Source: Patescibacteria group bacterium (lineage in GTDB: Bacteria; Patescibacteriota; Patescibacteriia; UBA2591; UBA6264). Taken from it: a DNA stretch of 64,000 bases. The DNA is taken from positions 202,678-266,677 of the forward strand of contig JAIPGN010000001.1 of NCBI GenBank assembly GCA_021735685.1, read 5' to 3'. Shown in pieces: positions 2,902-63,059 of the stretch; the stretch's first letter is position 1, and the number at the start of each line of letters is the position of its first letter. The notes beneath the pieces were generated by a model. It was given only the letters and a program-made list of their open reading frames with translations. It was not told the DNA's origin and made no database searches. A program made the position numbers and the translations under genes.

Positions 2902-3954
2902 ATGGCTTCAAAAAAAACCAGCAAAAAAGTAGACAGTAAGCCAGAGGTTAAAAAAGAGCTTACTGATCGTCAAAAAGCCACGGAAGTGGCGATTAATCAA
3001 ATTAAAGAAAGGTTTGGCGAAGGTTCTATTATGATGCTTCGCGAGGCCAAAAAAATGGAAGTAGAGGCTATCTCTACTGGTTGTTTATCCTTGGATTTAG
3101 CTTTAGGGATTGGCGGTTTACCCCGCGGCAGAGTTATTGAGATTTTCGGTAAAGAAATGAGCGGAAAAAGCACTTTAGCTCTCCATGTTATTGCTGAGGC
3201 TCAGAAAAAAGGCGGAGTAGCCGCTTTTGTTGATGCTGAGCATGCTTTGGACCCAGAATATGCTAAAAGAATCGGGGTAAAAGTCAATGATTTATTGATT
3301 TCCCAGCCGGATACGGGAGAGCAAGCCTTAGAAATAGTAGAAACTCTAGTGCGTTCTAATGGAATAGATGTAATTGTAATAGATTCTGTAGCGGCCTTAA
3401 CTCCGAAAAAAGAAATTGAGGGCGAAATGGGAGATTCGCACATGGGCTTACAGGCTCGTTTAATGAGTCAGGCCTTGCGCAAGCTAACCGCCATTGTGAG
3501 CAAGAGTAAGGCTTCGGTGATCTTCATTAATCAAGTAAGAATGAAGATTGGTGTATTTTTTGGTAATCCGGAAACCACTACTGGAGGATTAGCCCTTAAA
3601 TTCTACTCTTCAGTAAGGGTGGAGTTAAAACGTTTGGCTCAAATTAAAAAGAAAGATGATGTAATTGGTAATAAGGTTAAGGCTAAGATTGCTAAAAATA
3701 AGGTAGCTCCTCCTTTCAAGACTTGTGAGTTTGAAATTATGTATAATCAAGGAATTTCTTGGGAAGGGGACTTATTGAACTTAGGAGCTAAATATGATTT
3801 AGTTAAAAAATCTGGTAATACCCTTAGTTATGAAGAAACTAAACTTGGCGTAGGTTGGGAAAATTCTAAGCAAGCCTTGCGTGATAATCCCAAATTAGCT
3901 AAAGAACTGAAAAAGAAAATCCTAAAAGCGATCAAAGAAGAACAAAAATCCTAA
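2902..3954 (+). CDS. recA: Recombinase RecA
   Basis: P-loop GKEMSGKST is present and the RecA core ([13 protein letters not shown]...IVIDSVAAL...) shows full-length colinearity. Confidence 0.95.
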
Positions 3955-3960
3955 AAAAAT

Positions 3961-4037
3961 ATGTACGAGGTTCGACCTCGTACATTTGCCCCTAAAACGT
4001 CTCAACCATGCTATGTACGAGGTTCGACCTCGTACAT
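3961..4037 (-). repeat. Paired-palindrome repeat element, family P1 (two 25-bp perfect palindromes ATGTACGAGGT-CGA-ACCTCGTACAT separated by a 27-bp spacer), inverted copy
   Basis: Palindromes occupy 3961-3985 and 4013-4037. The loop reads TTCGA, the reverse complement of the TCGAA loop in the copies at 47115 and 47808. The spacer is the reverse complement of the spacer in those copies. Confidence 0.75.
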
Positions 4038-4060
4038 GGATAGTAGATAAAATAAAAAAA

Positions 4061-4093
4061 TTGCGGAGAAATTATTCTTCGCAATTTTTCTTT
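4061..4093. terminator. Stem-loop plus T-run between convergent recA and the wzz-like gene (candidate intrinsic terminator)
   Basis: TTGCGGAGAA-atta-TTCTTCGCAA hairpin (one mismatch) followed by TTTTTCTTT. It lies in a convergent intergenic region. Confidence 0.45.
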
Positions 4094-4112
4094 ATTCTAT
4101 TGTTTTTTGATA

Positions 4113-5126
4113 CTAATAATTAGTTTTTTTAACTTTCAGTTTTTCGATCGGGTCTTCCTTAAAATATTCTGCCCCAAAAGCATAAAGAATTCCTAAAAAT
4201 ATTCCCAGAATGCCAGCAATGATAACATTTTGCTTTCGGTTTGGAGAAATTCTGGTTTCAGGAGCTGTGGCTGGAACTTCAACTTCTGTGGGTTTGGTTT
4301 GATAAACCCTCTCGTATTTTTTAGATTGAATTTGTTGTTCTAGGTTAACTAGTTTATGTTCCAAATTCAGTAGTTGAGATTCTTTGCTTTCTTTTTGGTT
4401 TTTGACTGTGGCTAAAAGATCAATATAGCTTTCGGCAATGCGGCCTTGGCCATCGCTGTAAGCGGCCGAACGGTTATTAATTTCTCTTTGATAATTTTCA
4501 ATATCGCTTTCTAGGCGAGTAATTTCTTCGTTAGTTTTAGTAATATTTTTTTCTGTTTTTTCTTTTTCGCTTACAATGGTAGCTAACTCGGTTTCGTAAT
4601 TTTTTTCTGCTTCACTAAAGATATTGTTGTGATAGGTAAGGAGAATGTCTGAGACTGCTTGCACCACGGTTACTGCTTGTTCTGGAGTATGAGCCCTTCC
4701 TTGAATTTCAATAAATTTAGAAAACTTGTCTTGGTTTTCGCCATTTTCATTTTCTTTGATGTCAAACATTTGAGCTACTTGATTAGTGGTGGCTCCTTCT
4801 GATAATGCTAAAGGTTCCTTAATTTTGTTTTTAACTTGTTGGAGAACGGTTTCTCGAGAAAAAACAGAGTTGATAGTATTAAGGCTTTGAATGGGATCTC
4901 CTTTAATTTTTCCGACTTCAATTAAGTTGCTAGCCTGAAAAACAGGAGTTATTAGAAGACTGATGATAATACTAAAGATTACAATCCCTCCAAAAATACT
5001 GGCAATTTGCCATTTTCTCTTGCAAAGGACTTTAATATAATCTCGTAAGTCAATTTCATCTTCTTCTGAATAATGATGTTCTTCTAAGATTTTTTCTTCT
5101 TGGCTTTGATATTCGTTGTTTTCCAT
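4113..5126 (-). CDS. Polysaccharide co-polymerase / chain-length determinant (Wzz-like)
   Basis: N-terminal Wzz-type motif (IDLRDYIKVLCKRKWQI followed by a TM), a long coiled-coil periplasmic region and a C-terminal TM (IIAGILGIFLGILYAFGAEYF). Confidence 0.55.
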   Translation of the reverse strand: MENNEYQSQEEKILEEHHYSEEDEIDLRDYIKVLCKRKWQIASIFGGIVIFSIIISLLITPVFQASNLIEVGKIKGDPIQSLNTINSVFSRETVLQQVKNKIKEPLALSEGATTNQVAQMFDIKENENGENQDKFSKFIEIQGRAHTPEQAVTVVQAVSDILLTYHNNIFSEAEKNYETELATIVSEKEKTEKNITKTNEEITRLESDIENYQREINNRSAAYSDGQGRIAESYIDLLATVKNQKESKESQLLNLEHKLVNLEQQIQSKKYERVYQTKPTEVEVPATAPETRISPNRKQNVIIAGILGIFLGILYAFGAEYFKEDPIEKLKVKKTNY

Positions 5127-5149: not shown

Positions 5150-5482
5150 TTAAAAATTGCGACGGGCGGCAAAATTAAATGCATAAAAATATTTTTGCCA
5201 CAATTGGTCGGAAGATTCAAATTGATTATTAAATTGGAAGTAATCTATTAAGGCCTCCCGCAATCGAGTTAATTCTTTTAATCGTTTTTTATTTTTAAAA
5301 TCTTGAATGGTAAGACTTAAGAGCTCTAGCCCACGCACAAAGGCTTTTTCGCTATAATCATTCTTATTTTTATTTTTCCAGTTAATCGTTCTTTCTATTT
5401 CACTGCCAACATTAGCCATTTGTTCTATGAAAGGAATTTTTTCCCAGCGGCCGGAAGCTAAACTTTGGTGTTGTGGCTTCAT
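5150..5482 (-). CDS. Hypothetical helical protein (possibly HEPN or four-helix-bundle-like)
   Basis: Real ORF of 110 aa. Its ATG overlaps (ATGA) the stop of a frameshifted upstream reading frame. No diagnostic motif was recognised. Confidence 0.35.
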   Translation of the reverse strand: MKPQHQSLASGRWEKIPFIEQMANVGSEIERTINWKNKNKNDYSEKAFVRGLELLSLTIQDFKNKKRLKELTRLREALIDYFQFNNQFESSDQLWQKYFYAFNFAARRNF

Positions 5483-5757
5483 TTTTCAATAATATTATTT
5501 ACTATTTCAATAATTGATTTTTGAATTTGAGAATCATTTACTCCTCGGCTTCTATTTCCCTGAGATGGCCGGAAGTTAATCATAGAGTCAAATTCAATCA
5601 TTTTCTGGCCTTGGTCATATGGATAGATATTTATTCCCCAAAGATTGTTTTGCTTTGACCCATTTTCTGCAATTCTTGAATTGATATTTTGTCTTTAATA
5701 ATTTTCATAAATTGATTTTGATTTCTTGATTTAATTTAACAAAAAAAGAGACTTTTG

Positions 5758-6465
5758 TCAATTTACGATTTGCCCATAAATTAAACCAAGATACTCGTGA
5801 ATAGCTAAATCTACGTTTCTTAAATTTTGAGCGCAAGGAAAAAAATCTAGGAGATCATATTTTTCTTTTTGAACTTTAAAATCAGCTGGAACTGGAAAAG
5901 GGGATAGACCTTGTTGGTGAAAAAGGAAAACCGAACGAGGGAGATGATAGGCAGAAGTGATTAAATAAAAGCATTGATCTTTTAGTATTTCTTTCAAATT
6001 TTGTGCACTTTCTCCAGTAGTGCGTGATTTATTTTCTAAAATTATTTTATCAGGATCAAGGCCTTGACTGATTAGATGATTTTTTAATTTCAAGGCTTGG
6101 GTATCTTCGGGGTTTAAAAAGTATTGACCACTAACGATTATTTTTGTTTCTGGCTTAAGGTTAGCTATTCTTGTCGCTTCTGTGGCCCGCAGGCGGTCGC
6201 TTTCCGCTCCGCCCAGTAAAATTACAGCTTGAGTTATTTCTTTGGGCAGAGGCCCTTCTAGGGCCGAGAATTGATTTTCTAGGGGGGCGATAATAGTATC
6301 TGGAAAGGGAGTAATACTAAAGAGATAATAGATAATTAATCCTAAAATTAAAAGTCTAGTTCCTCTTTTTTTCTTTTTTAAAAGCAATAAAAACCCGAGA
6401 AGGGTAATTAAAAGGATAAAAACACTGGGTGTTAAAAATTGTTGAATAACTTTAAACCAAATCAT
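5758..6465 (-). CDS. DUF218 (YdcF/ElyC/SanA family) membrane-anchored protein
   Basis: N-terminal TM, then ILLGGAE...IVSGQ and a TSAYHLPRS motif that matches the DUF218 TSxYHMPR signature. Confidence 0.7.
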   Translation of the reverse strand: MIWFKVIQQFLTPSVFILLITLLGFLLLLKKKKRGTRLLILGLIIYYLFSITPFPDTIIAPLENQFSALEGPLPKEITQAVILLGGAESDRLRATEATRIANLKPETKIIVSGQYFLNPEDTQALKLKNHLISQGLDPDKIILENKSRTTGESAQNLKEILKDQCFYLITSAYHLPRSVFLFHQQGLSPFPVPADFKVQKEKYDLLDFFPCAQNLRNVDLAIHEYLGLIYGQIVN

Positions 6466-7064
6466 AATTTTTTTAAAATTTTATTTTTTATTTTAGAAAA
6501 TTGGTGCTGGTTAAGATTTATTTCCGGCACTTCTTTGGTTGTTTCTAAGATTTTTTTTAGTTCTTTAATAAAGTTTTCTTTTTTTTCTTTTTTTAAAAAA
6601 TTAAGATAAAATTTAAAATTAAAGTTTTGCCTCAGGAGACTAATGATGTCAATTTTATCTTTTTCTCCTTTAATAGAGCCGGATCTATTTTGAAAAGCAT
6701 ACTGTTTTAAAATCATTAATATTTCTATTTTTGGCAAAACAAATCCAGAGTAAAGAATGGTATTCTTTTCTATTTTCTCTATAGGAAGGCCGAGGTCAGA
6801 AAAAAAGGGAAGGTAGATGTCAATATCAGAATGATCAGTTTTGATTTCATATTTTTTCAATCTTTGATTTTTGATTAAATCGTGTTCTTGTTTTAATTTT
6901 TCTAACTCTTGGTAATCGCAAATAAAGTCAATATCTTTTGATTTTAATCCCTGAGTATAAAGAAAAACGGCCCATCCACCAATTAAAATAAAATGATGTT
7001 TTCTTTTTAACTCTTGGAGGAGTTGCCAACTTTTTTTAGTTATTAGGTCGTGATAAAAAGACAT
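6462..7064 (-). CDS. Nucleotidyltransferase-fold protein, AbiEii/DUF1814-like
   Basis: N-terminal ILIGGWAVFLYTQGLKSKDIDF resembles the AbiEii GGTAL...R.S.DID motif. There is a 4-nt ATGA overlap with the downstream DUF218 gene and a 2-nt gap from the upstream HTH gene. Confidence 0.45.
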   Translation of the reverse strand: MSFYHDLITKKSWQLLQELKRKHHFILIGGWAVFLYTQGLKSKDIDFICDYQELEKLKQEHDLIKNQRLKKYEIKTDHSDIDIYLPFFSDLGLPIEKIEKNTILYSGFVLPKIEILMILKQYAFQNRSGSIKGEKDKIDIISLLRQNFNFKFYLNFLKKEKKENFIKELKKILETTKEVPEINLNQHQFSKIKNKILKKL

Positions 7065-23761: not shown

Positions 23762-24709
23762 TTAAGATTTTATGGATTCTTTGATCCATTTTACTGTTTT
23801 GTTAATTCCAATTTTTATGTCAATCAGCGGTTTGTATTTTATAAGTTTTTTTGCTTTTGATATATCAGCCAAAGAATGCTTTACATCACCATCTCTGTGT
23901 TTTTCGTAGACTGCTTCAATATTTTTAGAAAGTAATTGGTTGATATATTTTAATAAGTCATTCAAAGAAATTTTTTCCCCGCAGGCTATATTCATAACTT
24001 CTCCAGAAATATCTGAATGCATTGCCAAAATATTGGCATTAACTACATTGTCAACATAAGTAAAATCTCTTGATTGCTCTCCATCTCCATAAATTGTAGG
24101 TTGTCTATTGTCTAAGATAGATTTAATAAATATGGGTATTACTGCTGAGTATTCTGAATTTGGGTCTTGTTTTGGACCAAAAACATTAAAATATCTTAAG
24201 CAAATGGTTGGTAATTTATATAATTGAGCGAAAAGTTGACAATATCTTTCTCCCGCGAGTTTAGTTAGGGCATATGGAGATATTGGATTAATTGGATCAT
24301 TTTCTTGCTTGGGCAATTTTACAGAATCCCCGTATATAGAAGAAGATGAAGCATATACTAGTTTTTTAACATTCGCATCCCGAGCCGCAATTAGAACGTT
24401 TAATGTACCGTCTATATTTGCCTTATTACTTGCAAAGGGATTATTGATAGAGCGGGGGACAGAAGGAATAGCAGCTTCGTGAAACACAAAATCTATATTT
24501 TTAACAACTCCTTTAGTCGTTTTTGGATTACTAATATCTCCTTCAATTAGTTCGAAATTTTTGTTATTCAAGAATTCTTCGATATTTTCTTTTTTTCCTG
24601 TAGAAAAATTATCGACCACACGAACATAGTTGTTTGACTCTAATAATTTTTTTACAAGGTTGGAGCCAATAAATCCAGCTCCGCCCGTCACAAGGTATTT
24701 ATTTTTCAT
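23762..24709 (-). CDS. NAD-dependent NDP-sugar epimerase/dehydratase (SDR family; WbpP/GalE-like)
   Basis: YLVTGGAGFIGSNL and the YxxxK catalytic motif (YALTK). Confidence 0.9.
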   Translation of the reverse strand: MKNKYLVTGGAGFIGSNLVKKLLESNNYVRVVDNFSTGKKENIEEFLNNKNFELIEGDISNPKTTKGVVKNIDFVFHEAAIPSVPRSINNPFASNKANIDGTLNVLIAARDANVKKLVYASSSSIYGDSVKLPKQENDPINPISPYALTKLAGERYCQLFAQLYKLPTICLRYFNVFGPKQDPNSEYSAVIPIFIKSILDNRQPTIYGDGEQSRDFTYVDNVVNANILAMHSDISGEVMNIACGEKISLNDLLKYINQLLSKNIEAVYEKHRDGDVKHSLADISKAKKLIKYKPLIDIKIGINKTVKWIKESIKS

Positions 24710-24742
24710 AATTAATTTTTAAGGTAATTTTTATAAAATTTT

Positions 24743-24857
24743 ATTGCTTTTGAGTTATCCCCAGTTCAGGGGTTGTTAATTTTTTAGGATGTGATATATT
24801 TATTCATGGAGCGACTGTATTTCTTCGGAATTACTTTCGCTCCATTTTTATTTCTCC
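24743..24857 (+). repeat. Direct repeat DR-left (~110 bp; contains CCCC-agttca-GGGG and GGAGCGA...TCGCTCC hairpins with T-runs)
   Basis: About 98% identical to 25908-26023. It bracket-flanks the MNT plus partner gene pair. Confidence 0.8.
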
Positions 24858-25294
24858 AGTTTGGGGGTCGCACCTCCAAACTTTTTGTTTTTAAATTTTA
24901 ATTTTGGTTGTTTGACTAGCATTTTTTCCGCTTTTTTAAATATTTGCTTGACCCAGAGAATGTATTCTTGGTTTTGTTTTTGAGAGATAGTAGCGCCTCC
25001 CCCATAAAGCTCCCAATTTCTTTTGGATCGCATTTCGTTAGCTAAAATTTCTATTTCTGGATCTTGGAGAAAAATAGAAAGTTTTTTTATTAGTTCTATG
25101 TGATGGCCCCTTTTTGATTTCACCCTTAAGTCCTTGATGGCACAAATAGCGATAGCTAATTTTAGGAGAGCGTCATAAGAAAAACGGAAAGAAACTTCCG
25201 GGACATTGGAAGAAAAGGCTATTCTAAAATCTTTTTTAGCAGATTCATAGTAACGGTTTATTTGTTTTTCTGAAAATTTGAACTTTTCAAACAT
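24848..25294 (-). CDS. Hypothetical helical protein, putative partner (HEPN-like?) of the adjacent MNT nucleotidyltransferase
   Basis: Start abuts the stop of the MNT gene. No canonical Rx4-6H HEPN motif was seen. The C-terminal 9 aa are encoded by a palindromic repeat. Confidence 0.35.
   Translation of the reverse strand: MFEKFKFSEKQINRYYESAKKDFRIAFSSNVPEVSFRFSYDALLKLAIAICAIKDLRVKSKRGHHIELIKKLSIFLQDPEIEILANEMRSKRNWELYGGGATISQKQNQEYILWVKQIFKKAEKMLVKQPKLKFKNKKFGGATPKLEK
24858..24883. repeat. P2-like palindrome AGTTTGGGGG-tcgca-CCTCCAAACT
   Basis: Close relative of the AAGTTTGGAGG-n5-CCTCCAAACTT palindromes at 61387, 61664 and 61979. It lies in-frame at the 3' end of the 24848..25294 ORF, encoding KFGGATPKL. 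Confidence 0.6.
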
Positions 25295-25840
25295 TTAAAT
25301 AATTTTTATTATTTTTTGAGAAAAAACATTTTTAATAAAATCGTCCTTTTTTTCTTTTCTTTTTTTAAATTCTGCTGGCGAGAAATCAACAATATTTATT
25401 TCTCGGCCAATGTCTTTTTCTAGGGGTAGAACTATTCTTTTGGTAGCCAAAGAAGAGTGGTCGCCGATTAGAAGTAAATCAATGTCACTTTCCGCTTGCA
25501 AGTTATTTTTAGCGTAAGAGCCAAAAATATAGGCCTCTTTTAATTTTTTAATTTTTTGCAATTTATTTTTAAGATTTTCAACAACTCCGTAATTAGAATT
25601 ATAAATTCGTTTCAACTCTTCTAGAAGGGGATAGTCTTGGTTAAGAGAATAGTATTTTTGGTTACCGCGTTTTTCAGAAATTAAAATTTTTTCTTTTTCT
25701 AGTTCTTTTAATTTTCGAAAAAGATTCCCGACATCTAGATTTAATTTTTTGGCTAATTCATTAATATATTTTTCTTTTTGCGGGTTAAGAAAAAAATATC
25801 CTAAAATTTTTTTTGTAATGATTGAACGAAGTTTAAGCAT
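25295..25840 (-). CDS. Winged-HTH plus minimal nucleotidyltransferase (MNT) domain protein
   Basis: YIFGSYAKNNLQAESDIDLLLIG matches the GSxAxG...SDIDL MNT motif. An N-terminal wHTH precedes it. Confidence 0.7.
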   Translation of the reverse strand: MLKLRSIITKKILGYFFLNPQKEKYINELAKKLNLDVGNLFRKLKELEKEKILISEKRGNQKYYSLNQDYPLLEELKRIYNSNYGVVENLKNKLQKIKKLKEAYIFGSYAKNNLQAESDIDLLLIGDHSSLATKRIVLPLEKDIGREINIVDFSPAEFKKRKEKKDDFIKNVFSQKIIKII

Positions 25841-25846
25841 AAAAAA

Positions 25847-25880
25847 TTGTTATTGTAATTATTTACAATAATTATTGTAA
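25847..25880. promoter_or_regulatory. Inverted-repeat operator-like sequence upstream of the MNT gene
   Basis: TTATTGTAA-ttatt-TACAATAA plus a further TTGTAA half-site, immediately upstream of the minus-strand start at 25840. Confidence 0.3.
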
Positions 25881-25907
25881 AACTTAACAATAAATTGTCA
25901 ATTATTA

Positions 25908-26023
25908 ATTGCTTTTAAGTTATCCCCAGTTCAGGGGTTGTTAATTTTTTAGGATGTGATATATTTATTCATGGAGCGACTGTATTTCTTCGGAATTACT
26001 TTCGCTCCATTTTTTATTTTTTA
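25908..26023 (+). repeat. Direct repeat DR-right (copy of 24743-24857)
   Basis: Near-identical to DR-left, with a one-base difference at the 5' end (A vs G) and an extra T in the T-run. Confidence 0.8.
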
Positions 26024-26283
26024 ACAATAAGATTTTTTAAGGTGGAGGAGGCCATTTTTTTAGCCTCCTCCGCGTGCCATCGCATCTTAATGTTCGAACT
26101 GAAACTGAATTTTTCCCAAAGAGGTTTGTGTTTTTCTGCTTTTGTTAGATACATTTTGCAGACTAATGCTTTTTTGAGGATAAGTATCCCGAAGCTCGAC
26201 TAACGACGATTCTCTAGCATTTTCATTAATGGTCCACATTTCATTTTGATAATAAACATATATATCGTTTTTGTTCCCCCTTC

Positions 26284-26310
26284 CTCCTGATCATGTCAGG
26301 AGTTTTTTTG
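26284..26310 (+). terminator. Orphan plus-strand intrinsic terminator (CTCCTGA-tcatg-TCAGGAG followed by T7)
   Basis: Perfect 7-bp stem followed by TTTTTTT with no plus-strand ORF upstream. It lies in the ORF-free stretch 26024-26347. Confidence 0.45.
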
Positions 26311-26347
26311 TCTGCGATGACTTTGTGTATAAAGAACAATGTGACTT

Positions 26348-26593
26348 TTACCAGTTTTTGATTTTCTTCTTGGTTTTTTCTTTAAGGTCGCGATAGACAT
26401 GACGAGTTTCTTCTTCTAGGTCTGGAGAAATTAAACGTAAAATTTCCGAGCCTAAGATTTTATAGCGTCCGCCAATCTTATTAGCTCGGATAATTCCTTT
26501 TTTAAGCCAGCGTTTAATTGTGCTTTTACTGATTTTTAAAAATTCTCTGGTTTCGCCGGTGGTGTAAATTTTATGTGGTTCTATTTTATCCAT
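26348..26593 (-). CDS. Excisionase-family (HTH_17/MerR-type) DNA-binding protein
   Basis: YTTGETREFLKISKSTIKRWLKKGIIRANKIGGRYKI matches the excisionase/AlpA HTH_17 signature. Confidence 0.6.
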   Translation of the reverse strand: MDKIEPHKIYTTGETREFLKISKSTIKRWLKKGIIRANKIGGRYKILGSEILRLISPDLEEETRHVYRDLKEKTKKKIKNW

Positions 26594-26600
26594 AGATATT

Positions 26601-27689
26601 TTATTTTATTTCTACACGCGTATAGCGAGAGTGAAGCAGTTTGGCTACGGCCATATAACTAGGTTTGAATTTAATATTATTGCCTACTTTCTTTTTTAAT
26701 CTTTCGTCTTTAGTTAAATTATGGCCTAGGTCATAAACACTCATATCAGAAGTGGTGCCAACTAGAGAGATATTCTTTTCAGCGGGTTGAAGTTCTTGAG
26801 CATCAACATCTAAGAGGCCGAAGTCTAGAATGGCTCGATAGGTTTGAATATTTTCTTTTTTAATTTTTGAGGTGTGGCCAACGCTGGCTTGACTGATTTG
26901 TCCTTGGGGTCGAGAGTCTTTCTTTTTCATTTCAATAATATTGGCTTGATACTTAAAAGCACTAATGTTTAGGTTTTTAAATTTTTTTCCAGTTAAAGGG
27001 TTAGTTCCCACAAAGGCCGATTCTCCGATCCGAAAATGATTAATATTGTTTGGTATTTTTCTTTTCACTAAAGGAAGGGTAATAGAACTTCCTCCAGAAA
27101 TATATTTAATTTTTTTATTAAATTTTGCTTCGAGTAATTGTTTGTATAAAGAAAGTTGAATCATTTTGTCGCGAGTTGGTTGAATGCCATACATGCAACC
27201 AAGGTTAGCTCCAATCCCTATAATCTTAATATGGGAAAGATTAAAGGTTTGTTGGTAAAAATTGATTAAATTTTTACCTAGAACGCCTTCTCTTAATTCT
27301 CCTAATTCTAGCATAATGATAATGCGATGAATTTTATTTTGTTTTTGAGCTTCTTGATTCAAAGCTTTAATCGTGGAAAGAGAGGTATTAAGAGAAATGT
27401 CAGCATATTTAATAACTTTGGGAACATCGCGCAAAGAAGGAGGTTTGATATAGAGAGTGCTTAGTTTAGGATTTATCTCTTTTATTCTTTTTAGATTACT
27501 TAGACGAGAGTCACCCAAAGAATGAAGTTTTTTCACGGCCGGATATTGGAGGAGTTTTTCTAGAATTTCTTGGTGACCGGATAATAGCTTAGTGACCAAA
27601 GTCCATTCTATTTCTTTTGGCTTTAGTATTTGGTCTATCTTCTCAATATTTTCAATTATTTTTTTAGTGTCGACAATTAGTTTACTCAT
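26601..27689 (-). CDS. Alanine-racemase-domain protein (PLP fold-type III; YhfX-like)
   Basis: N-terminal TLVTKLLSGH resembles the Alr PLP-Lys region (VVKANAYGHG-like). The barrel-domain spacing is consistent. The assignment is weak. Confidence 0.45.
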   Translation of the reverse strand: MSKLIVDTKKIIENIEKIDQILKPKEIEWTLVTKLLSGHQEILEKLLQYPAVKKLHSLGDSRLSNLKRIKEINPKLSTLYIKPPSLRDVPKVIKYADISLNTSLSTIKALNQEAQKQNKIHRIIIMLELGELREGVLGKNLINFYQQTFNLSHIKIIGIGANLGCMYGIQPTRDKMIQLSLYKQLLEAKFNKKIKYISGGSSITLPLVKRKIPNNINHFRIGESAFVGTNPLTGKKFKNLNISAFKYQANIIEMKKKDSRPQGQISQASVGHTSKIKKENIQTYRAILDFGLLDVDAQELQPAEKNISLVGTTSDMSVYDLGHNLTKDERLKKKVGNNIKFKPSYMAVAKLLHSRYTRVEIK

Positions 27690-30751: not shown

Positions 30752-30809
30752 TAAATAGTTGTCCACAGGGGAGGGGTTGCTAAAAAATAAAATTTTATTA
30801 AAATAAACT

Positions 30810-30886
30810 ATGGTGCTTGTCACGAACTTCGGTTCTTTGGTTTTCGTAAGGTTCGCCTTTCGTTTACCAAGCAAGCACCATTTTTT
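30810..30886 (+). ncRNA. GGTGCTTG-stem structured element with two internal UUCG-tetraloop hairpins and a T-run (complex terminator or small RNA), copy A
   Basis: ATGGTGCTTG...CAAGCACCAT 10-bp closing stem encloses GAAC-TTCG-GTTC and GTAAGG-TTCG-CCTTTCG, then TTTTTT. It is about 75% identical to the copy at 62983-63059, whose closing-stem bases differ. Confidence 0.4.
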
Positions 30887-30984
30887 ATTTCCGAAAATGG
30901 AATTGTAAGTCGAAAAAATGACGAGAAAAAAGATTTAGCTTGTTAAGCTGCTCAAAACATTTCTGGGCGGCTTCTTTATATCTA

Positions 30985-45483: not shown

Positions 45484-47046
45484 ATGATGGCCAGATTTTC
45501 TAAATTAAAAGGAACAATTACTGGCGGAGCAATGATCATTGCTCTTTTTTCTGTTTTTAGCCGAATTTTAGGTCTTCTCCGAGATAGGTTATTGAGCAGT
45601 AGTTTTGGTGCCGGTCGGGTTTTAGATGCTTATTATGCATCTTTTCGTTTACCCGACTTAATTTTTAATACCCTTATTTTAGGGGCGCTTTCTTCGGCTT
45701 TCATCCCCATCTTTTTAAAATATTGGCAAAAAGATAAAGAAGAGGCCTGGCGAATAACTAATTCGGTTTTAAATATTTTATTACTTATTGTTTTGGGTTT
45801 GGCCACTTTAGCTTTTTTTCTAGCACCGACCTTGATTAGATATTTAGTGCCAGGTTTTGATTTAGAAACTCAGACTTTGACTGTTTCTTTAACTCGGATT
45901 ATGCTGATTGGCATTTTGTTTTTTACTTGCAGCAACATTGCCAGCAGTGTCTTGAATTCTTTTCGTCGTTTTTTAGTTTATAGTTTAGCGCCTTTAATGT
46001 ATAATCTGGGCATTATCTTCGGCATTATGGTTTTAGTGCCTCACACTTCTTTAGGTTTAAAGGGTTTAGCTTGGGGAGTTACTCTAGGAGCAGCTGGACA
46101 TTTTTTGATCCAATTGCCAGCTTTACTAAAAACTGGTTATCGCTGGCAACCGATCATTTCTTCTCATCAAGCTATTAAGAAGATAGTTAAATTAATGCTA
46201 CCTCGTTGTTTCGGCCTAGCAGTGAGTCAATTAAATTTCGTGGTTACCACTTTAGTGGCTTCTACTTTGACGGTGGGAGCGGTAGCAATTTACAGCTTGG
46301 CTTTCAATCTTTTTAATGTCCCTATTGGCATTTTTGGCATTTCTTTAGCTATTGCTATTTTTCCGGTTTTAAGTGGAAGCTTTGCCCAAGGGGATCAAAA
46401 AACCTTTGTTTCTCAAATGTCTAAAACCGTGCAAAGAATTATTTATTTAATTGTTCCGATTACTATTCTTTATTTAAGTTTAAGGGCTCAGATTGTTCGT
46501 TTAATTTTAGGGGCCGGGGTGTTTTCTTGGCGGGATACAGTTTTAACCGCTACTACCTTAGGATTTTTCTCTCTTTCTCTTTTAGCGCAAAGTTTAATTC
46601 CTTTATTTTCCCGTGCCTTTTATTCTTTACATGATACTTTGACCCCAGTTAAAATAGCAGTAGTTAGTTTTGGAGTTAATATTGTTGGCTGTTTTCTTTT
46701 GGGTCGTTGGATTGGAGTAGGGGGATTAGCTTTAGCTTTTTCTTTGGCTTCTTTTATAAATCTAATCTTACTGTATTACTTTTTTCATAAAAAAGCATTA
46801 CCCTTGCCAAACAAAAAGATAAGAATAACATTTTTGCGAGCCTTTGGGCTTTCTGCGATAATGTTAGTAATTGTTCAGCTAAGTAAAGGCTTATTTGGTT
46901 CTTTGGTTAATATGCAAACTTTTGTTGGGGTTTTGATTCAGACTGTTGTTTCAGGTTCAATTGGTCTTTTGTTTTACTTTGTGGCTAGCCTATTTTTGCA
47001 TTTTCCAGAAGTAGACATAATTAAACAATTTTTTAAAAGAAAATAA
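45484..47046 (+). CDS. murJ: Lipid II flippase MurJ (MviN)
   Basis: N-terminal FSRILGLLRDRLLSSSFGAG...DAYYASFRLPDL is characteristic of MurJ. 14 TM segments. Confidence 0.85.
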   Translation: MMARFSKLKGTITGGAMIIALFSVFSRILGLLRDRLLSSSFGAGRVLDAYYASFRLPDLIFNTLILGALSSAFIPIFLKYWQKDKEEAWRITNSVLNILLLIVLGLATLAFFLAPTLIRYLVPGFDLETQTLTVSLTRIMLIGILFFTCSNIASSVLNSFRRFLVYSLAPLMYNLGIIFGIMVLVPHTSLGLKGLAWGVTLGAAGHFLIQLPALLKTGYRWQPIISSHQAIKKIVKLMLPRCFGLAVSQLNFVVTTLVASTLTVGAVAIYSLAFNLFNVPIGIFGISLAIAIFPVLSGSFAQGDQKTFVSQMSKTVQRIIYLIVPITILYLSLRAQIVRLILGAGVFSWRDTVLTATTLGFFSLSLLAQSLIPLFSRAFYSLHDTLTPVKIAVVSFGVNIVGCFLLGRWIGVGGLALAFSLASFINLILLYYFFHKKALPLPNKKIRITFLRAFGLSAIMLVIVQLSKGLFGSLVNMQTFVGVLIQTVVSGSIGLLFYFVASLFLHFPEVDIIKQFFKRK

Positions 47047-47052
47047 GCAAAA

Positions 47053-47199
47053 AATTTCCAGAAAAAATTTGTTCAGCTTCTGCCTAGATCAAACCTAGGT
47101 AAATAATTCCCAAAATGTACGAGGTCGAACCTCGTACGTCGCATGGTTAAGCTGTTCTAGGGGCAAATGTACGAGGTCGAACCTCGTACATGTTTTTTT
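47053..47199 (+). repeat. P1 paired-palindrome element, extended copy B (leader AATTTCCAGAAAAAATTTGT..., then two 25-bp palindromes, then T8)
   Basis: Palindromes at 47115-47139 (one mismatch) and 47167-47191, followed by TTTTTTTT. It lies immediately after the murJ stop. Confidence 0.7.
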
Positions 47200-47268
47200 T
47201 GAATATTGACAAGTTGGCTATTTTTTGCTATTCTCGTAATATCTTTAAAAAATGCAAGGAGGTGCGCC

Positions 47269-47673
47269 ATGCTTTTATTTGCAGACGCAATTCTAGTTAT
47301 TTTTTTGCTTGGTTTAAGTAGAAAAATAACTTCACAGATTCAGATAGCGGAGTCTTTCCGCCGTTGTCGTTGCCAAAAAGAAGAGAATGAGGAAGAAGAG
47401 TCAGCGGAAAATCTATTTTTCTTAATTTTCAGTTGGCTTCTCTTTATTTCTTCTGCGATTTTCCTCCTTTTCTTCCCTAAAGATTTTTCATGGAGGGAAA
47501 CCGCTGTTTTGGTAGCTGCGTTCCAGTTTATTTTGAGTCTTTGTGGAATGTTTTTCCTGGGGCACAAGAAAGCGTTCCATGTAATTCTTAGCGAATATGG
47601 CTTTAAAGCTGTGTTCGCAGCCACGATCATTACTGGGGTTTTTGTTGCTTTTTTGTTAGCTATTTTTTCTTAA
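47269..47673 (+). CDS. Small polytopic membrane protein, hypothetical (134 aa, about 4 TM segments)
   Basis: AGGAGG RBS at 47254-47260, 6 nt before ATG 47269. Bracketed by P1 copies B and C. The TTG start at 47206 in the ORF track is rejected. Confidence 0.45.
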   Translation: MLLFADAILVIFLLGLSRKITSQIQIAESFRRCRCQKEENEEEESAENLFFLIFSWLLFISSAIFLLFFPKDFSWRETAVLVAAFQFILSLCGMFFLGHKKAFHVILSEYGFKAVFAATIITGVFVAFLLAIFS

Positions 47674-47736: not shown

Positions 47737-47754
47737 TTTAGAAATAAGTAAAAG

Positions 47755-47893
47755 AATTTCTAGAAAAAATTTGTCTAGACTTGTCTAAGCTGGGCTTATC
47801 CAAACAAATGTACGAGGTCGAACCTCGTACATCGCATGGTTAAGCTGTTCTAGAGGCAAATGTACGAGGTCGAACCTCGTACATATTTTTTTT
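47755..47893 (+). repeat. P1 paired-palindrome element, extended copy C
   Basis: Leader AATTTCTAGAAAAAATTTGT..., perfect palindromes at 47808-47832 and 47860-47884, then T9. The 78-bp core is about 97% identical to copy B. Confidence 0.7.
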
Positions 47894-47984
47894 GAGACAA
47901 AAGTTTTGGGGGCGAAATTTCCAAATCTTGTCAGCTCCTAAACTTTATCATTGTCCTGTCTCTTCGGCTTTAGTCTGTCTAAAA

Positions 47985-50871: not shown

Positions 50872-50878
50872 GAAAGAA

Positions 50879-50950
50879 TAGCAGGAGCGGGGATCGAACC
50901 CGCGACATGTGCCTTATGAAGACACCGCTCTGCCACTGAGCTATCCTGCC
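50879..50950 (-). tRNA. tRNA with CAU anticodon (elongator Met or Ile2/lysidine type)
   Basis: Reverse complement GGCAGGA-TA-GCTC-AGTGGCA-GAGC-G-GTGTC-TTCATAA-GGCAC-ATGTC-GCGGG-TTCGATC-CCCGC-TCCTGCT-A forms a cloverleaf with a G1-U72 wobble, a CAT anticodon and no encoded CCA. Confidence 0.8.
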
Positions 50951-50951
50951 A

Positions 50952-51026
50952 TGGTTGCGGGGACAGGATTCGAACCTGTATCCTCCAGGTTATGGGCCTG
51001 GCGAGCTGCCATTGCTCTACCCCGCG
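50952..51026 (-). tRNA. tRNA-fMet-like (CAU anticodon, C1:A72 mismatch, encoded CCA)
   Basis: Reverse complement CGCGGGG-TA-GAGC-AATGGCA-GCTC-G-CCAGG-CCCATAA-CCTGG-AGGAT-ACAGG-TTCGAAT-CCTGT-CCCCGCA-A-CCA. The unpaired C1/A72 is an initiator hallmark. One nucleotide separates it from the next tRNA. Confidence 0.8.
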
Positions 51027-61363: not shown

Positions 61364-61386
61364 AATCTTAAAGCTATTTCTGAAAA

Positions 61387-61413
61387 AAGTTTGGAGGCTG
61401 AACCTCCAAACTT
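61387..61413. repeat. P2 palindrome AAGTTTGGAGG-ctgaa-CCTCCAAACTT (copy 1, loop in inverted orientation)
   Basis: Perfect 11-bp arms. The CTGAA loop is the reverse complement of the TTCAG loop in copies 2 and 3. It lies 60 nt upstream of the transposase-like ATG. Confidence 0.7.
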
Positions 61414-61474
61414 TTTCGTTCCTTTTTTTAAAATTATTTCAAAATATGTTTATAATGATTATAATAAAAAACAT

Positions 61475-62185
61475 ATGAGCAAAAGAAAGGTTCAATTTAT
61501 TAATGATGAGTATTATCACGTCTATAATCGAGGAGTTGATAAGAGAATAGTTTTTGAGTCTTCAGAAGATTTAGAAAGATTCTTTTTAAGTATGCAAGAG
61601 TTTAACGATATAAATCCTATTGGCAGCATTTATGAGGAAAAATTAATCAAAAATAGAATAGAAAAGTTTGGAGGTTCAGCCTCCAAACTTTCAGCCTCTG
61701 ATTTTTCCCCGAAAGAAAAGGAGAAATTAGTAGAATTCATTTGTTATAATTTATTGCCAAATCATTATCATTTTTTTCTGAAGCAATTAGTAGATAATGG
61801 GATTCAGAAATTTATGCATAGAATATCAACGGGCTATACGGGATTTTTTAACAGGAAAAATAAGCGCAACGGTTCTTTGTTTCAAGGCAGATATAAAGCA
61901 ATTCATGTTAATTCTAATGAGTATTTGTTGCACTTAAGCACATATATTAATCTTAATCACCAGGTACATAATTTAGAAAAGTTTGGAGGTTCAGCCTCCA
62001 AACTTTTTAAATCTAGTTGGAGAGAATATTTAGGGCAGGATCAAAAAGAAATTTGCGCTAAGGATATTATTTTAGATCAATTTGACTCTAGTAATAATTA
62101 TCAAAAATTTAGCGAAGAAGGTTTAGAAAGAATTAAGGAGAGCAAAGAAATTCAAAAATATTTATTAGAGGAATTAAATAATTAA
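61475..62185 (+). CDS. IS200/RAYT-like HuH (Y1) transposase-family protein with two in-frame palindrome-encoded inserts
   Basis: YHVYNRGVDKRIVF (beta1), LLPNHYHFFL (HuH-type HxH motif) and SLFQGRYKAIHVNSNEYLLHLSTYINLNH (Y-containing helix) are colinear with the Y1 transposase/TnpA_REP fold. The sequence EKFGGSASKL occurs twice and is encoded by P2 palindromes. Start chosen at ATG 61475. Confidence 0.55.
   Translation: MSKRKVQFINDEYYHVYNRGVDKRIVFESSEDLERFFLSMQEFNDINPIGSIYEEKLIKNRIEKFGGSASKLSASDFSPKEKEKLVEFICYNLLPNHYHFFLKQLVDNGIQKFMHRISTGYTGFFNRKNKRNGSLFQGRYKAIHVNSNEYLLHLSTYINLNHQVHNLEKFGGSASKLFKSSWREYLGQDQKEICAKDIILDQFDSSNNYQKFSEEGLERIKESKEIQKYLLEELNN
61664..61690. repeat. P2 palindrome AAGTTTGGAGG-ttcag-CCTCCAAACTT (copy 2, inside the transposase-like CDS)
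   Basis: Perfect arms. Translated in-frame as KFGGSASKL. Confidence 0.7.
61979..62005. repeat. P2 palindrome AAGTTTGGAGG-ttcag-CCTCCAAACTT (copy 3, inside the transposase-like CDS)
   Basis: Identical to copy 2 and 315 bp downstream of it. It is translated in the same frame as copy 2. Confidence 0.7.
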
Positions 62186-62922: not shown

Positions 62923-62982
62923 GTTTTTGAGTTATCCACAGACAAAGGGTTGTGTAAAAATAATAATCTGTTAAGATAAATA

Positions 62983-63059
62983 ACGGTGCTTATTTTGAAC
63001 TTCGGTTCTTTGGTTGACGAAAGGTTCGCCTTTCAGATGCCAGATAAGCACCATTTTTT
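62983..63059 (+). ncRNA. GGTGCTTG-stem structured element with two internal UUCG-tetraloop hairpins and a T-run, copy B
   Basis: GGTGCTTAT...ATAAGCACC 9-bp closing stem encloses GAAC-TTCG-GTTC and GAAAGG-TTCG-CCTTTC, then TTTTTT. The closing stem differs from copy A while pairing is preserved. Confidence 0.4.

What the first reader, a model, noticed from the sequence alone, without database searches (positions are those of the whole stretch)
24743..26593. Nucleotidyltransferase (MNT) plus partner gene pair bracketed by ~110-bp near-identical direct repeats, next to an excisionase-type HTH gene
DR-left (24743-24857) and DR-right (25908-26023) are about 98% identical. Each carries two GC-rich hairpins with T-runs. 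They lie exactly at either side of a two-gene minus-strand unit. That unit is a wHTH plus minimal nucleotidyltransferase protein (GSYAKNNLQAESDIDLL) and a small helical partner that starts at the stop of the MNT gene. A palindromic operator-like TTATTGTAA/TTACAATAA sits at the promoter. Directly downstream is an Xis/AlpA-type HTH_17 gene (26348-26593). The layout looks like a toxin-antitoxin or defence cassette captured between repeated recombination or terminator sites. It sits at the edge of the glycan locus.
Basis: seen in the sequence. Interest (0 to 1): 0.7.

Follow-up and report, generated by a model that had tools for sequence, protein, structure and literature searches.

The report
Defence gene cassette flanked by duplicated target
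A two-gene toxin-antitoxin-like defence cassette sits in this candidate-phyla bacterium between two copies of about 110 bases of local DNA, of which a cassette-free relative has only one copy; the same transposase-free "insertion with long target duplication" footprint recurs around this cassette family in many other genomes.

Summary
Bases 24740-24853 and 25905-26019 are 97-98% identical direct repeats, and they are the only two copies in the window. They bracket a minus-strand operon encoding a wHTH-nucleotidyltransferase and a HEPN-fold partner. This pair matches the PADLOC candidate system PDC-M05 and resembles a type VII toxin-antitoxin module.

The repeats are not recombination sites carried by the cassette, not attC sites, and not a genome-wide terminator unit. 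A close relative (L112) lacks the cassette. At the same place, downstream of the same HTH_17 gene and a small ORF, it carries one copy of the repeat unit, joined to the hairpin that in the window follows the cassette. The repeat is therefore duplicated target DNA.

The pattern recurs. In 16 of 67 species-level genomes the same cassette family is flanked by direct repeats made of local sequence, such as the polA and uvrD 5' ends and the ilvD 3' end. Local controls gave 3 of 113. Fic and other cassettes show it too.

This matches "insertion with long target duplication", described for restriction-modification units, whose mechanism is unknown. The HTH_17 gene is a resident neighbour, not the cassette's excisionase. 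Main caveats are the short-read MAG assembly and the unknown direction of the event (gain or loss).

The parts
25905..26019 (.). DR-right. This is the upstream copy in the direction of transcription of the cassette. It ends 3 nt before the cassette's -35 box.
   Evidence: 97-98% identical to 24740-24853; 89% identical to the single copy L112:5599-5700.
24740..24853 (.). DR-left, the downstream copy. It lies 30 nt before the ATG of the epimerase gene and overlaps the last 6 nt of the partner ORF.
   Evidence: Together with hairpin hp3 it aligns as one block (window 24892-24748) to L112:5556-5700 at 86%.
24858..24882 (+). Hairpin hp3 (AGTTTGGGGGTCGCACCTCCAAACT followed by a T-run on the + strand). 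It is target-derived DNA, not cassette DNA. On the minus strand it encodes part of the partner's C-terminal tail.
   Evidence: terminator-like site; contiguous with the DR unit in cassette-free L112. A second copy in L112 (5785-5815) sits just after the stop of an SNase gene on the opposite strand.
24848..25294 (-). HEPN-fold partner gene (148 aa; homologues are about 135 aa). The last ~13 codons are read-through into target DNA.
   Evidence: PADLOC PDC-M05B 8e-11. AlphaFold2 model pLDDT 86.6, with residues 133-147 below 50. Top Foldseek PDB hits are HEPN proteins 2hsb, 3o10, 1wol, 2q00, 4nqf (probability ~1, TM 0.5-0.66, E 0.03-0.4). 13 of 34 homologues hit Pfam HEPN below threshold. Alignment.
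25295..25840 (-). wHTH + minimal nucleotidyltransferase gene (181 aa) with the motif GSYAKNNLQAESDIDLL.
   Evidence: Pfam Polbeta and NTP_transf_2, plus weak MarR/HTH_24 hits at residues 20-62. NCBIfam MntA_antitoxin 6.5e-8, below its cut-off. PADLOC PDC-M05A 1.6e-44.
25850..25901 (-). Cassette promoter and operator: -35 TTGACA (25901-25896), -10 TACAAT (25879-25874), and two tandem palindromes, TTATTGTAA-N4-TTACAATAA and TTATTGTAA-N4-TAACAATAA. This is the left end of the inserted segment.
   Evidence: (inverted repeat I24). 84-88% nucleotide identity to the same region in L003-L021. Homology with the L003 cassette spans window 25901-24903. In Omnitrophota-type cassettes the palindrome is TTATGGTAA..TTACCATAA instead.
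24893..25904 (-). Inferred inserted segment, about 1.0 kb, running from the promoter to the end of the partner gene.
   Evidence: Bounded by the DR-right end, by the limit of cassette homology, and by the start of homology to the L112 empty site. The right boundary is uncertain by about 10 nt.
26087..26239 (-). Conserved small ORF (50 aa) between HTH_17 and DR-right. It is part of the resident locus.
   Evidence: homologous to a 62-aa ORF in L112 and L115-L118 (called genes). No Pfam hit.
26348..26593 (-). HTH_17 (excisionase/MerR-type HTH) gene, 81 aa. It is a resident neighbour, not part of the cassette.
   Evidence: 179 homologues. Present at the same locus in the cassette-free relative.
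24753..24845 (+). Inner module of the DR unit on the + strand: the DnaA-box-like motif AGTTATCCCCAG, a promoter-like TTGTTA-16-TGnTATATT (24773-24800), and hairpin 2 followed by a T-run (24806-24845). The same module lies at 25918-26010. It is a candidate small-RNA or terminator module.
   Evidence: The promoter hexamers and hairpin 2 are conserved in L112. No Rfam match.

Best explanation
The ~1.0-kb segment 24893-25904 is a compact, self-regulated two-gene module of the PDC-M05 / MNT-HEPN kind.

How the module probably works (all inferred by homology; none of it was tested here):
- The N-terminal wHTH of the nucleotidyltransferase probably binds the two palindromes that overlap its own promoter, giving autorepression.
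- The nucleotidyltransferase domain probably neutralises the HEPN-fold partner, as MntA does for HepT by AMPylation.

How it got there: the module lies in intergenic DNA downstream of the resident HTH_17 and small-ORF genes, at the head of a glycan-synthesis gene cluster. The event was an 'insertion with long target duplication'. About 115 nt of target were copied, possibly ~150 nt with the adjoining hairpin later lost from the upstream copy. The duplicated target is a promoter/hairpin/T-run module. One copy now lies on each side of the insert.

The insert carries no transposase or integrase. It starts 3 nt before its own -35 box. It ends at about the partner gene's original stop codon, so the partner ORF now reads ~13 codons into target DNA.

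The likely route, which is inference only: linear DNA is taken up and joined into a staggered break whose long overhangs are filled in. RecA is encoded in the window at 2902-3954. It could then delete the cassette precisely, or amplify it, by recombination between the two copies. This would give the cassette-free, single-copy state seen in the relative.
For: Shown:
- The repeat pair is real and unique in the window.
- Both genes match PDC-M05A/B.
- The partner has a HEPN fold and a disordered tail.
- The operator is conserved across cassettes.
- Cassette homology to L003 covers exactly the segment between the repeats.
- Relative L112 (HTH_17 90% aa; ileS and racemase 86% nt) has the order IleRS, racemase, HTH_17, small ORF, then a single hp3 + DR unit, with no cassette.
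- Pfam finds no recombinase or transposase domain among the ORFs scanned across most of 2.2-47 kb. recA is present.

Recurrence:
- 16 of 67 GTDB loci of this cassette family have similarity of at least 35 bits between their two flanks. The comparison values are 17 of 4422 cross-locus pairs, and 1 of 56 plus 2 of 57 neighbouring pseudo-cassettes.
- In the tight cases the upstream copy ends 0-26 nt before the -35 box and the downstream copy starts 0-21 nt after the partner stop.
- The repeats are local target sequence: the polA 5' end (L033), the uvrD 5' end (L039, L050), the ilvD 3' end (L103), and a whole HTH_17 gene (L030).
- Many pairs are only 79-90% identical, so they cannot be assembly collapses.
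- Other cassettes show the same footprint: Fic in L051 and in L112 itself (106-nt repeat made of the HTH_17 5' end), a methyltransferase + NUDIX pair in L029, and an 82-aa MNT in L034.

Literature:
- The same footprint was defined for restriction-modification units: no mobility genes, duplications above 30 bp and up to 423 bp, a single copy in the empty-site genome, and mostly in naturally competent species (PMC2853133; PMC3457768).
- One PDC-M05 representative protected E. coli against at least one phage (bioRxiv 10.1101/2024.09.26.614923).
Against: - Hairpin hp3 lies next to the downstream copy only. A simple duplication of the L112-like target predicts hp3 before the upstream copy as well, so a secondary deletion or a different ancestral arrangement has to be assumed.
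- The direction of the event is not resolved. L112 could have lost the cassette by recombination between the repeats rather than never having had it.
- The two copies share a core of about 95 exact bases and come from a short-read MAG. Independent Logan contigs break inside the repeat. An empty site plus a circular cassette is therefore not excluded for this sample.
- No biochemical mechanism for long target duplication is known.
- The canonical HEPN Rx4-6H motif is not intact. Its position reads R92-N93-x3-Y97, with Y97 invariant across the 34 aligned homologues and R92 conserved in at least 90% of them. The toxin's activity is therefore uncertain.
- The rest of the genome (contig of 268,542 bp) could not be searched for further copies of the repeat.
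Confidence: 0.6

Rival explanations
1. Integration of a circular cassette that carried one copy of the repeat. This would be a Campbell-type event, either by RecA homologous recombination with the chromosomal copy or by a trans-acting site-specific recombinase using the unit as an att site. The repeats would then be attL and attR rather than a de novo duplication.
For: Two direct copies with a cassette between them is the expected product. recA is present. Arrays with three copies of one target and two different cassettes (L029, L049) are easily built this way. The Logan graph is compatible with a circle plus an empty site.
Against: No integrase or transposase domain was found among the ORFs scanned across most of 2.2-47 kb. 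The repeat is not associated with the cassette in any other genome. In other genomes the repeats are each made of different local sequence, so a first duplication-generating event is still needed at every site. In the tight cases the cassettes carry no leftover repeat from a former site.
Confidence: 0.15
2. Chance insertion between pre-existing repeats. Under this view the promoter/hairpin module was already tandemly duplicated at this site, and the cassette landed in, or replaced, the spacer between the two units.
For: The unit belongs to a dispersed family of similar modules. L112 has two copies of the hp3 hairpin around its single unit, so local duplication of small elements does happen here. 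The position of hp3, which lies only before the downstream copy, fits a unit-spacer-hp3-unit ancestor better than a simple target duplication does. Furuta et al. list this as a separate class.
Against: The only cassette-free relative available has one unit, not two. The copies are 97-98% identical to each other but 86-89% identical to L112, so the duplication is young. The same bracketing recurs around this cassette family with repeats made of coding 5' or 3' ends, which cannot have been pre-existing tandem repeats.
Confidence: 0.12
3. Assembly artefact. The repeat-cassette-repeat order would be a wrong path through a repeat node in the assembly graph: the chromosome has the empty site, and the cassette sits elsewhere or on a small circle.
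For: The shared core is about 95 exact bases. Logan k=31 contigs end 30 nt inside the repeat on every side. The source is a MAG.
Against: All four junction sequences exist in independent contigs (L001, L002, L106). A 110-nt repeat is shorter than typical reads and than the large k-mers used by MAG assemblers. The same architecture occurs in many other MAGs with diverged copies (79-90%) that cannot be mis-joined.
Confidence: 0.05
4. The two copies are kept because they work for the system. They might insulate it as terminators, or encode a small RNA (on the + strand, antisense to the partner's 3' end) that regulates the cassette or the glycan operon.
For: On the + strand the unit has a conserved promoter-like site and a very stable hairpin followed by a T-run. 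Hairpin 2 is better conserved against L112 than the flanking genes are.
Against: The unit exists without the cassette in L112, and cassettes elsewhere lack it. The flanking repeats in other genomes have unrelated content. There is no Rfam family and no expression data.
Confidence: 0.05

Closest known systems
Insertion with long target duplication of restriction-modification gene complexes (Nobusato et al. 2000, Gene 259:99; Furuta, Abe & Kobayashi 2010, PMC2853133)
   Same: A small selfish or defence gene unit with no mobility genes. It is flanked by direct repeats of tens to hundreds of bp made of local target sequence. The repeat is single-copy in a related genome that lacks the insert. Repeat lengths vary from site to site, and gene ends are sometimes duplicated or fused. 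The window meets their operational criteria.
   Different: The cargo here is an MNT/HEPN toxin-antitoxin-like pair, which should not cut DNA, whereas the RM authors suggested that double-strand breakage by the cargo is involved. The hosts are Patescibacteria and Omnitrophota. The frequency within one cassette family is high (about 24% of loci). The insert ends are remarkably tight, running from the -35 box to the stop codon.
Type VII toxin-antitoxin HepT/MntA (HEPN/MNT; e.g. Shewanella SO_3166/SO_3165, PMC7641770)
   Same: A minimal nucleotidyltransferase gene with the GS...DxD motif is followed by a HEPN-fold gene in one operon. HepT structures 7bxo, 5yep and 7ae6 are among the fold matches. 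There is a weak NCBIfam MntA hit.
   Different: The nucleotidyltransferase has an N-terminal wHTH domain. The partner lacks the canonical Rx4-6H(xY) motif and has RNx3Y instead. The NCBIfam score is below the cut-off (32 vs 60 bits). No Pfam HEPN or HepT hit reaches threshold.
PADLOC candidate defence system PDC-M05
   Same: Both proteins match the two PDC-M05 component models over nearly full length. The published description is an ArsR-like HTH + KNTase-like nucleotidyltransferase with a HEPN protein.
   Different: None in architecture. The mechanism of PDC-M05 itself is uncharacterised. The family is reported as enriched in Archaea, whereas this branch is in Patescibacteria.
Integron gene cassettes and attC arrays (CALINs)
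   Same: Promoter-bearing toxin-antitoxin cassettes separated by similar repeats of about 100 nt. Some related loci show arrays of the form repeat-cassette-repeat-cassette-repeat (L029, L049).
   Different: There are no R''/R' core sites (RYYYAAC / GTTRRRY). The unit folds into two separate hairpins rather than one long imperfect one. No integron integrase was found. The repeats are target sequence that differs at every site, including coding 5' ends.
IS1634/IS1549-type insertion sequences that make long, variable target duplications (from my own knowledge; IS1634 is cited in PMC2266710, and IS1630 in a figure legend of PMC2853133)
   Same: Target duplications of tens to hundreds of bp, of variable length.
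   Different: Those elements encode a DDE transposase and have terminal inverted repeats. This cassette has neither.

Membership tests
Insertion with long target duplication (criteria of Furuta et al. 2010) | The insert contains the complete gene unit and is shorter than 20 kb | tested here: met
   About 1.0 kb holding the promoter and both genes.
Insertion with long target duplication (criteria of Furuta et al. 2010) | Flanking direct repeat longer than 30 bp | tested here: met
   110-115 bp at 97-98% identity.
Insertion with long target duplication (criteria of Furuta et al. 2010) | The repeated sequence aligns with a single copy at the same locus in a related genome that lacks the insert | tested here: met
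   L112-L118 have one unit at L112:5594-5705, downstream of the same HTH_17 and small ORF, and no cassette. Caveat: the flanks beyond the unit differ, because the glycan locus has been replaced.
Insertion with long target duplication (criteria of Furuta et al. 2010) | No other mobile-element genes in or next to the insert, and the repeat is not a multicopy element | tested here: inconclusive
   No recombinase or transposase Pfam domain among the ORFs scanned across most of 2.2-47 kb. Only two copies in 64 kb. The rest of the genome was not available. An IS200-like ORF lies 36 kb away. Paralogues at roughly 65% identity exist.
Type VII TA HepT/MntA | Minimal nucleotidyltransferase with the GS-x(9-11)-DxD catalytic motif | tested here: met
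   GSYAKNNLQAESDIDLL. Pfam NTP_transf_2 2.9e-10.
Type VII TA HepT/MntA | Adjacent HEPN-domain toxin | tested here: met
   Supported at the fold level only. Top Foldseek hits are HEPN proteins (probability ~1, E 0.03-0.4, TM 0.5-0.66). 13 of 34 homologues hit PF05168 below threshold.
Type VII TA HepT/MntA | Rx4-6H RNase motif (RX4HXY in HepT) | tested here: not met
   The position reads R92-N93-W-(D/E)-L-Y97. Y97 is invariant in 34 homologues and R92 is conserved in at least 90% of them. His occurs only at G63-H64-H65.
Type VII TA HepT/MntA | Toxicity of the HEPN protein and its neutralisation by AMPylation | not testable with these tools
   Requires expression and mass-spectrometry experiments.
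PADLOC PDC-M05 | Adjacent genes matching the PDC-M05A and PDC-M05B models | tested here: met
   1.6e-44 (residues 8-181 of 181) and 8e-11 (residues 3-129). Adjacent in 97 of 99 loci.
Integron cassette / attC | R'' RYYYAAC and R' GTTRRRY cores closing one long imperfect hairpin, plus an integron integrase | tested here: not met
   No such cores on reading the sequence. The fold gives two independent hairpins. No integrase in the annotated neighbourhood.
Genome-wide terminator / REP-like unit | Many near-identical copies after unrelated genes | tested here: not met
   Two copies in 64 kb. A two-hairpin pattern taken from the repeat found no match in GTDB species genomes and only one chance GC-rich match in JGI metagenomes. 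Only roughly 65% paralogues at 30757-30890 and 62930-63063. The whole genome was not searchable.
Excisionase-controlled integrative element | The Xis-type HTH gene belongs to the element and is absent from empty sites | tested here: not met
   HTH_17 is present next to ileS or the racemase gene in cassette-free L112-L118, and in L107-L111, whose contigs end inside the repeat so that cassette status there is unknown.

The most novel reading that the evidence does not exclude
Long target duplication could be the signature of a dedicated, transposase-free mobility pathway for small toxin-antitoxin and defence cassettes in Patescibacteria and Omnitrophota. The pathway might even be promoted by the cassette itself: the wHTH-nucleotidyltransferase binds the operator that forms the cassette's left end, and a Pol-beta-type transferase could act on DNA ends. 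Under this reading the flanking repeats then drive RecA-dependent excision, amplification and the building of cassette arrays.
Probability: 0.1. Interest if true: 0.85.

Novelty: new member of a known kind. Interest (0 to 1): 0.5.

Why it matters
The gene pair itself is an ordinary member of a known candidate defence family. The useful part is the repeats. [quoted passage not shown]

The same footprint appears around roughly a quarter of the sampled loci of one MNT/HEPN family, and around Fic and other cassettes, in streamlined candidate-phyla bacteria. This shows that the process does not need a DNA-cutting cargo. It also provides dozens of natural junctions from which the mechanism could be worked out: the insert ends at the -35 box and at the stop codon, and the targets lie at gene ends.

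It also explains how such cassettes can sit inside or next to essential genes (polA, uvrD, ilvD) without destroying them, and how they can be lost precisely.

Tried and rejected
- **Integron attC site.** No core sites, two separate hairpins, no integrase.
- **Known RNA family.** Rfam at gathering threshold on the whole window, and at E<=1 on 24650-26400, gave nothing relevant.
- **Genome-wide repeat.** A two-hairpin pattern found nothing in 185,579 species genomes. In JGI metagenomes it found one match, in a high-GC soil contig, which is a chance hit.
- **Repeat as part of the cassette.** blastn and nhmmer of the repeat against all 118 fetched loci hit only the window's own lineage.
- **HTH_17 as the cassette's excisionase.** Rejected because the gene is resident in cassette-free relatives.
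- **Close homologues of the epimerase (88-90% identity).** Checked for a repeat-bearing empty site, but they lie in other contexts without the repeat.
- **Sequence search of the partner against PDB.** No hit with the single sequence; the family profile gave one chance hit at E=1. Only the fold comparison gave HEPN.
- **L055.** Its 'bracketing' repeats are a REP-like GGGAATGA element also present inside an ORF, so I do not count it as a target duplication.
- **~1-kb contigs.** Many partner homologues sit on contigs of about 1 kb. I do not use this as evidence, because Logan contigs are short anyway.
- **Strains L107-L111.** They could not be used to decide whether an empty-site variant exists, because their contigs end inside the repeat.


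Full report
**1. Observation**

The repeat is real. Positions 24740-24849 and 25905-26014 match at 98% over 110 nt, and blastn extends this to 115 columns at 97.4% (24740-24853 vs 25905-26019). The differences are one substitution, one A/T-run indel and one mismatch at the end. Each 40-nt half occurs exactly twice in the 64-kb window, with none expected by chance. Sensitive searches find no third copy. Each copy holds two hairpins that have T-runs only on the + strand.

Between the copies lie two minus-strand genes. The first encodes 181 aa (25840..25295). The second encodes 148 aa (25294..24848), and its ATG directly follows the first gene's stop codon. The organism is a Patescibacteria MAG (locus tag K9K85_01210, contig of 268,542 bp, sample SRR12088349).

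**2. The gene pair**

The first protein has a weak winged-helix match at residues 20-62 and a minimal nucleotidyltransferase domain with the motif GSYAKNNLQAESDIDLL (Pfam Polbeta 3.5e-11, NTP_transf_2 2.9e-10). The partner has no Pfam hit, but both proteins match the two components of the PADLOC candidate system PDC-M05 (1.6e-44 and 8e-11).

An AlphaFold2 model of the partner, built on 34 homologues, is confident (pLDDT 86.6). The exception is residues 133-147. Its best PDB matches are HEPN-domain proteins, and HepT toxins also appear in the list. Probabilities are near 1, but the E-values are modest (0.03-0.9) and TM-scores are 0.5-0.66. Thirteen of the 34 homologues hit Pfam HEPN below threshold.

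The canonical Rx4-6H motif is not intact. The family has R92-N93-x3-Y97, with Y97 invariant and R92 conserved in at least 90% of the homologues, plus an invariant G63-H64 followed by H65. MNT->partner adjacency holds in 97 of 99 fetched loci.

Published work describes PDC-M05 as a nucleotidyltransferase plus a HEPN protein, toxin-antitoxin-like. One representative protected E. coli against at least one phage.

**3. Promoter and operator**

A TTGACA-16-TACAAT promoter (25901-25874) is overlapped by two tandem palindromes, TTATTGTAA-N4-TTACAATAA and TTATTGTAA-N4-TAACAATAA. This 52-nt stretch is 84-88% identical in cassettes from other genomes whose proteins are only 53-75% identical. Omnitrophota-type cassettes carry TTATGGTAA..TTACCATAA at the same place. 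This fits an operator that co-evolves with the wHTH domain. Autoregulation itself is inferred, not shown.

**4. What the repeat is**

Homology between the window's cassette and the cassette of a relative (L003) runs from 25901 to 24903. This is the segment between the repeats and nothing more.

A closer relative provides the empty site. L112 is a 658,661-bp JGI contig (HTH_17 90% aa; ileS and racemase 86% nt). Its gene order is ileS (opposite strand), racemase, a Fic gene, HTH_17, a 62-aa ORF, and then a single copy of the repeat unit (L112:5594-5705). There is no MNT cassette. That single copy is 89% identical to DR-right.

Together with the hairpin just before it, the L112 copy aligns as one block to window 24892-24748, which is hairpin hp3 plus DR-left (86% over 145 nt). 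This has three consequences:
- hp3 (24858-24882) is target DNA.
- The partner ORF lost its stop at the junction and reads ~13 codons through hp3 into the repeat. This explains the disordered tail and the extra length compared with ~135-aa homologues.
- The repeat is a duplicated piece of the resident intergenic region.

The 333-nt gap between HTH_17 and DR-right is not empty. It holds a small ORF (26087-26239) conserved in the relatives. HTH_17 itself is present at this locus in the cassette-free relative (L112-L118), and in strains L107-L111 whose contigs end before the cassette position, so it is a resident gene.

**5. Nature of the duplicated unit**

On the + strand the unit reads as follows:
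- AGTTATCCCCAG. L112 has the perfect DnaA-box-like TTATCCACA here.
- A promoter-like TTGTTA-16-TGnTATATT.
- A very stable hairpin with a UUCG loop.
- A T-run.

The promoter hexamers and the hairpin are conserved in L112. Two roughly 65%-similar modules with the same layout but a larger RNA lie after ileS (30757-30890) and after a methyltransferase gene (62930-63063). The 12-mer is enriched in the window, with 11 matches against 3 expected. The unit is therefore probably a small-RNA or terminator module of a loose family. No Rfam family matches. This does not explain the 98% pair, because the orthologous site in L112 has one copy.

**6. Recurrence**

I fetched 80 loci of the cassette family from species-level genomes of Patescibacteria, Omnitrophota, Saganbacteria and others, and compared the 250 nt on each side of the cassette.
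- 16 of 67 loci score at least 35 bits on the same strand.
- The controls are 17 of 4422 cross-locus pairs, and 1 of 56 plus 2 of 57 neighbouring pseudo-cassettes.
- In nine of these GTDB loci, plus the window itself, the bracketing is tight: the upstream copy ends 0-26 nt before the -35 box and the downstream copy begins 0-21 nt after the partner stop.

The repeated sequence is local in every case:

| Locus | Duplicated target |
|---|---|
| L033 | Ribosome-binding site and first 14 codons of polA |
| L039, L050 | Start of a uvrD/pcrA gene |
| L042, L049 | Start of a 71-76-aa ORF |
| L103 | Last 68 nt of ilvD |
| L030 | A whole HTH_17 gene (327 nt at 99%) |

Many pairs are only 79-90% identical, so they cannot be assembly collapses. 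L029 and L049 have three copies of one target with two different cassettes between them.

Other cassettes carry the same footprint: Fic in L051, a methyltransferase + NUDIX pair in L029, and an 82-aa MNT in L034. In L112 itself, a Fic cassette is flanked by a 106-nt repeat (95%) made of the first 106 nt of HTH_17.

**7. What is known**

This is the footprint that Nobusato et al. (2000) and Furuta et al. (2010) named 'insertion with long target duplication'. They described it for restriction-modification units with these properties: no mobility genes, repeats above 30 bp and up to 423 bp, a single copy in the empty-site genome, mostly in naturally competent species, and mechanism unknown. They suggested that double-strand breakage by the cargo is involved, and they showed that the repeats permit amplification.

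I found no paper linking this footprint to toxin-antitoxin or MNT/HEPN cassettes. That is an absence within the searched library only.

**8. Mechanism and rivals**

My best reading (0.6) is an insertion with long target duplication of a PDC-M05-type cassette. RecA is encoded at 2902-3954. It could delete or amplify the cassette through recombination between the repeats.

Steps that are shown:
- the duplication itself
- the single-copy state in a relative
- the insert boundaries
- the recurrence of the footprint
- the absence of a nearby recombinase

Steps that are inferred:
- the joining chemistry (fill-in of a staggered break, then end joining)
- DNA uptake
- the direction of the event
- all protein functions

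Rivals:
- Campbell-type or att-type integration of a circle carrying one copy (0.15).
- Chance insertion between pre-existing tandem units (0.12). This rival is helped by the fact that hp3 precedes only the downstream copy.
- Assembly artefact (0.05). Logan contigs do break inside the repeat.
- Repeats retained because they function for the system (0.05).

**9. Verdict**

The repeats, however, are duplicated target DNA rather than capture sites, and the HTH_17 gene is a bystander.

The locus is a new member of two known kinds, PDC-M05 and insertion with long target duplication. The recurrence in streamlined candidate-phyla genomes, with a cargo that should not cut DNA, is the part worth following up.

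Noticed in passing
L112:3099-3204 and 5005-5110 (Fic gene at 3439-4869): In the cassette-free relative, a Fic-domain gene lies between the racemase gene and HTH_17. It is flanked by a 106-nt direct repeat (95%) that is the first 106 nt of HTH_17. This is a second long-target-duplication footprint at the same locus.
   Followed up: partly
window 26601-27689 (racemase-like gene) compared with L107-L111: Strains with an identical HTH_17 protein (samples SRR264698xx) lack the ornithine/alanine-racemase-like gene. In them the ileS-side promoter region is joined directly to HTH_17. The racemase gene is therefore another presence/absence polymorphism here.
   Followed up: partly
window 26087-26239 (minus strand): A small ORF (50 aa; 62 aa in relatives) is conserved between HTH_17 and the repeat. 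It diverges fast between strains while its flanks stay nearly identical. It has no Pfam hit.
   Followed up: partly
window 30757-30890 and 62930-63063 (+ strand): Two 78%-identical modules lie after ileS and after a methyltransferase gene. Each has AGTT(A/G)TCCACAG, a promoter-like site, and a ~90-nt multi-stem RNA closed by GGTGCTT..AAGCACC followed by a T-run (folding z-scores -6.6 and -4.6). They may be an undescribed small-RNA family, and the repeat unit is a shorter paralogue. No Rfam hit.
   Followed up: partly
window, 11 sites including 7730, 11576, 24753, 25918, 30757, 31145, 53088, 62930: The DnaA-box-like 12-mer AGTTATCCACAG (up to 2 mismatches) occurs 11 times against 3.05 expected. 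Several sites appear to be intergenic.
   Followed up: no
window 47041-47202 and 47742-47895 (direct), 3945-4037 (inverted): A 160-nt repeat (82%) brackets a 155-aa ORF of unknown function (47206-47673) between murJ and lepA. A third, inverted copy follows recA, and it contains a terminator-like hairpin. This is either another target duplication or a terminator-type repeat family.
   Followed up: no
window 61391-62185: An ORF with an IS200-like Y1 transposase domain (E 4e-7) is flanked by 32-43-nt inverted repeats (61384-61428, 61649-61691, 61977-62008). It may be a RAYT/REP-type arrangement.
   Followed up: no
L112:5570-5600 and 5785-5815; window 24858-24882: The hairpin AGTTTGGRGG..CCTCCAAAC occurs twice in the relative, once just past the stop of an SNase gene on the opposite strand, and once in the window. 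It looks like a small hairpin that is copied or lost locally.
   Followed up: partly
L029:2826-2916, 5437-5599, 6796-6956; L049:3521-3617, 4315-4442, 5403-5484: In these loci there are three copies of one target (the 5' end of a methyltransferase gene in L029, and of a 71-aa ORF in L049) with two different cassettes between them. These are repeat-separated cassette arrays built at one site.
   Followed up: partly
window 25841-25870 and 24710-24739: Neither the MNT gene nor the epimerase gene has a recognisable Shine-Dalgarno sequence upstream of its ATG. The partner's ATG abuts the MNT stop codon, which suggests translational coupling.
   Followed up: no
window 50878-51026: Two adjacent tRNA-Met (CAT) genes lie on the minus strand.
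   Followed up: no
L003-L011, L030, window: Cassettes of the closest subfamily (partner 70-75% identical) lie near an HTH_17 gene in three lineages, but at different insertion points. In L003 the cassette follows an epimerase gene. In L030 the whole HTH_17 gene is duplicated around it. In the window it follows the small ORF. The neighbourhood of HTH_17 at the head of variable glycan loci looks like a hotspot.
   Followed up: partly
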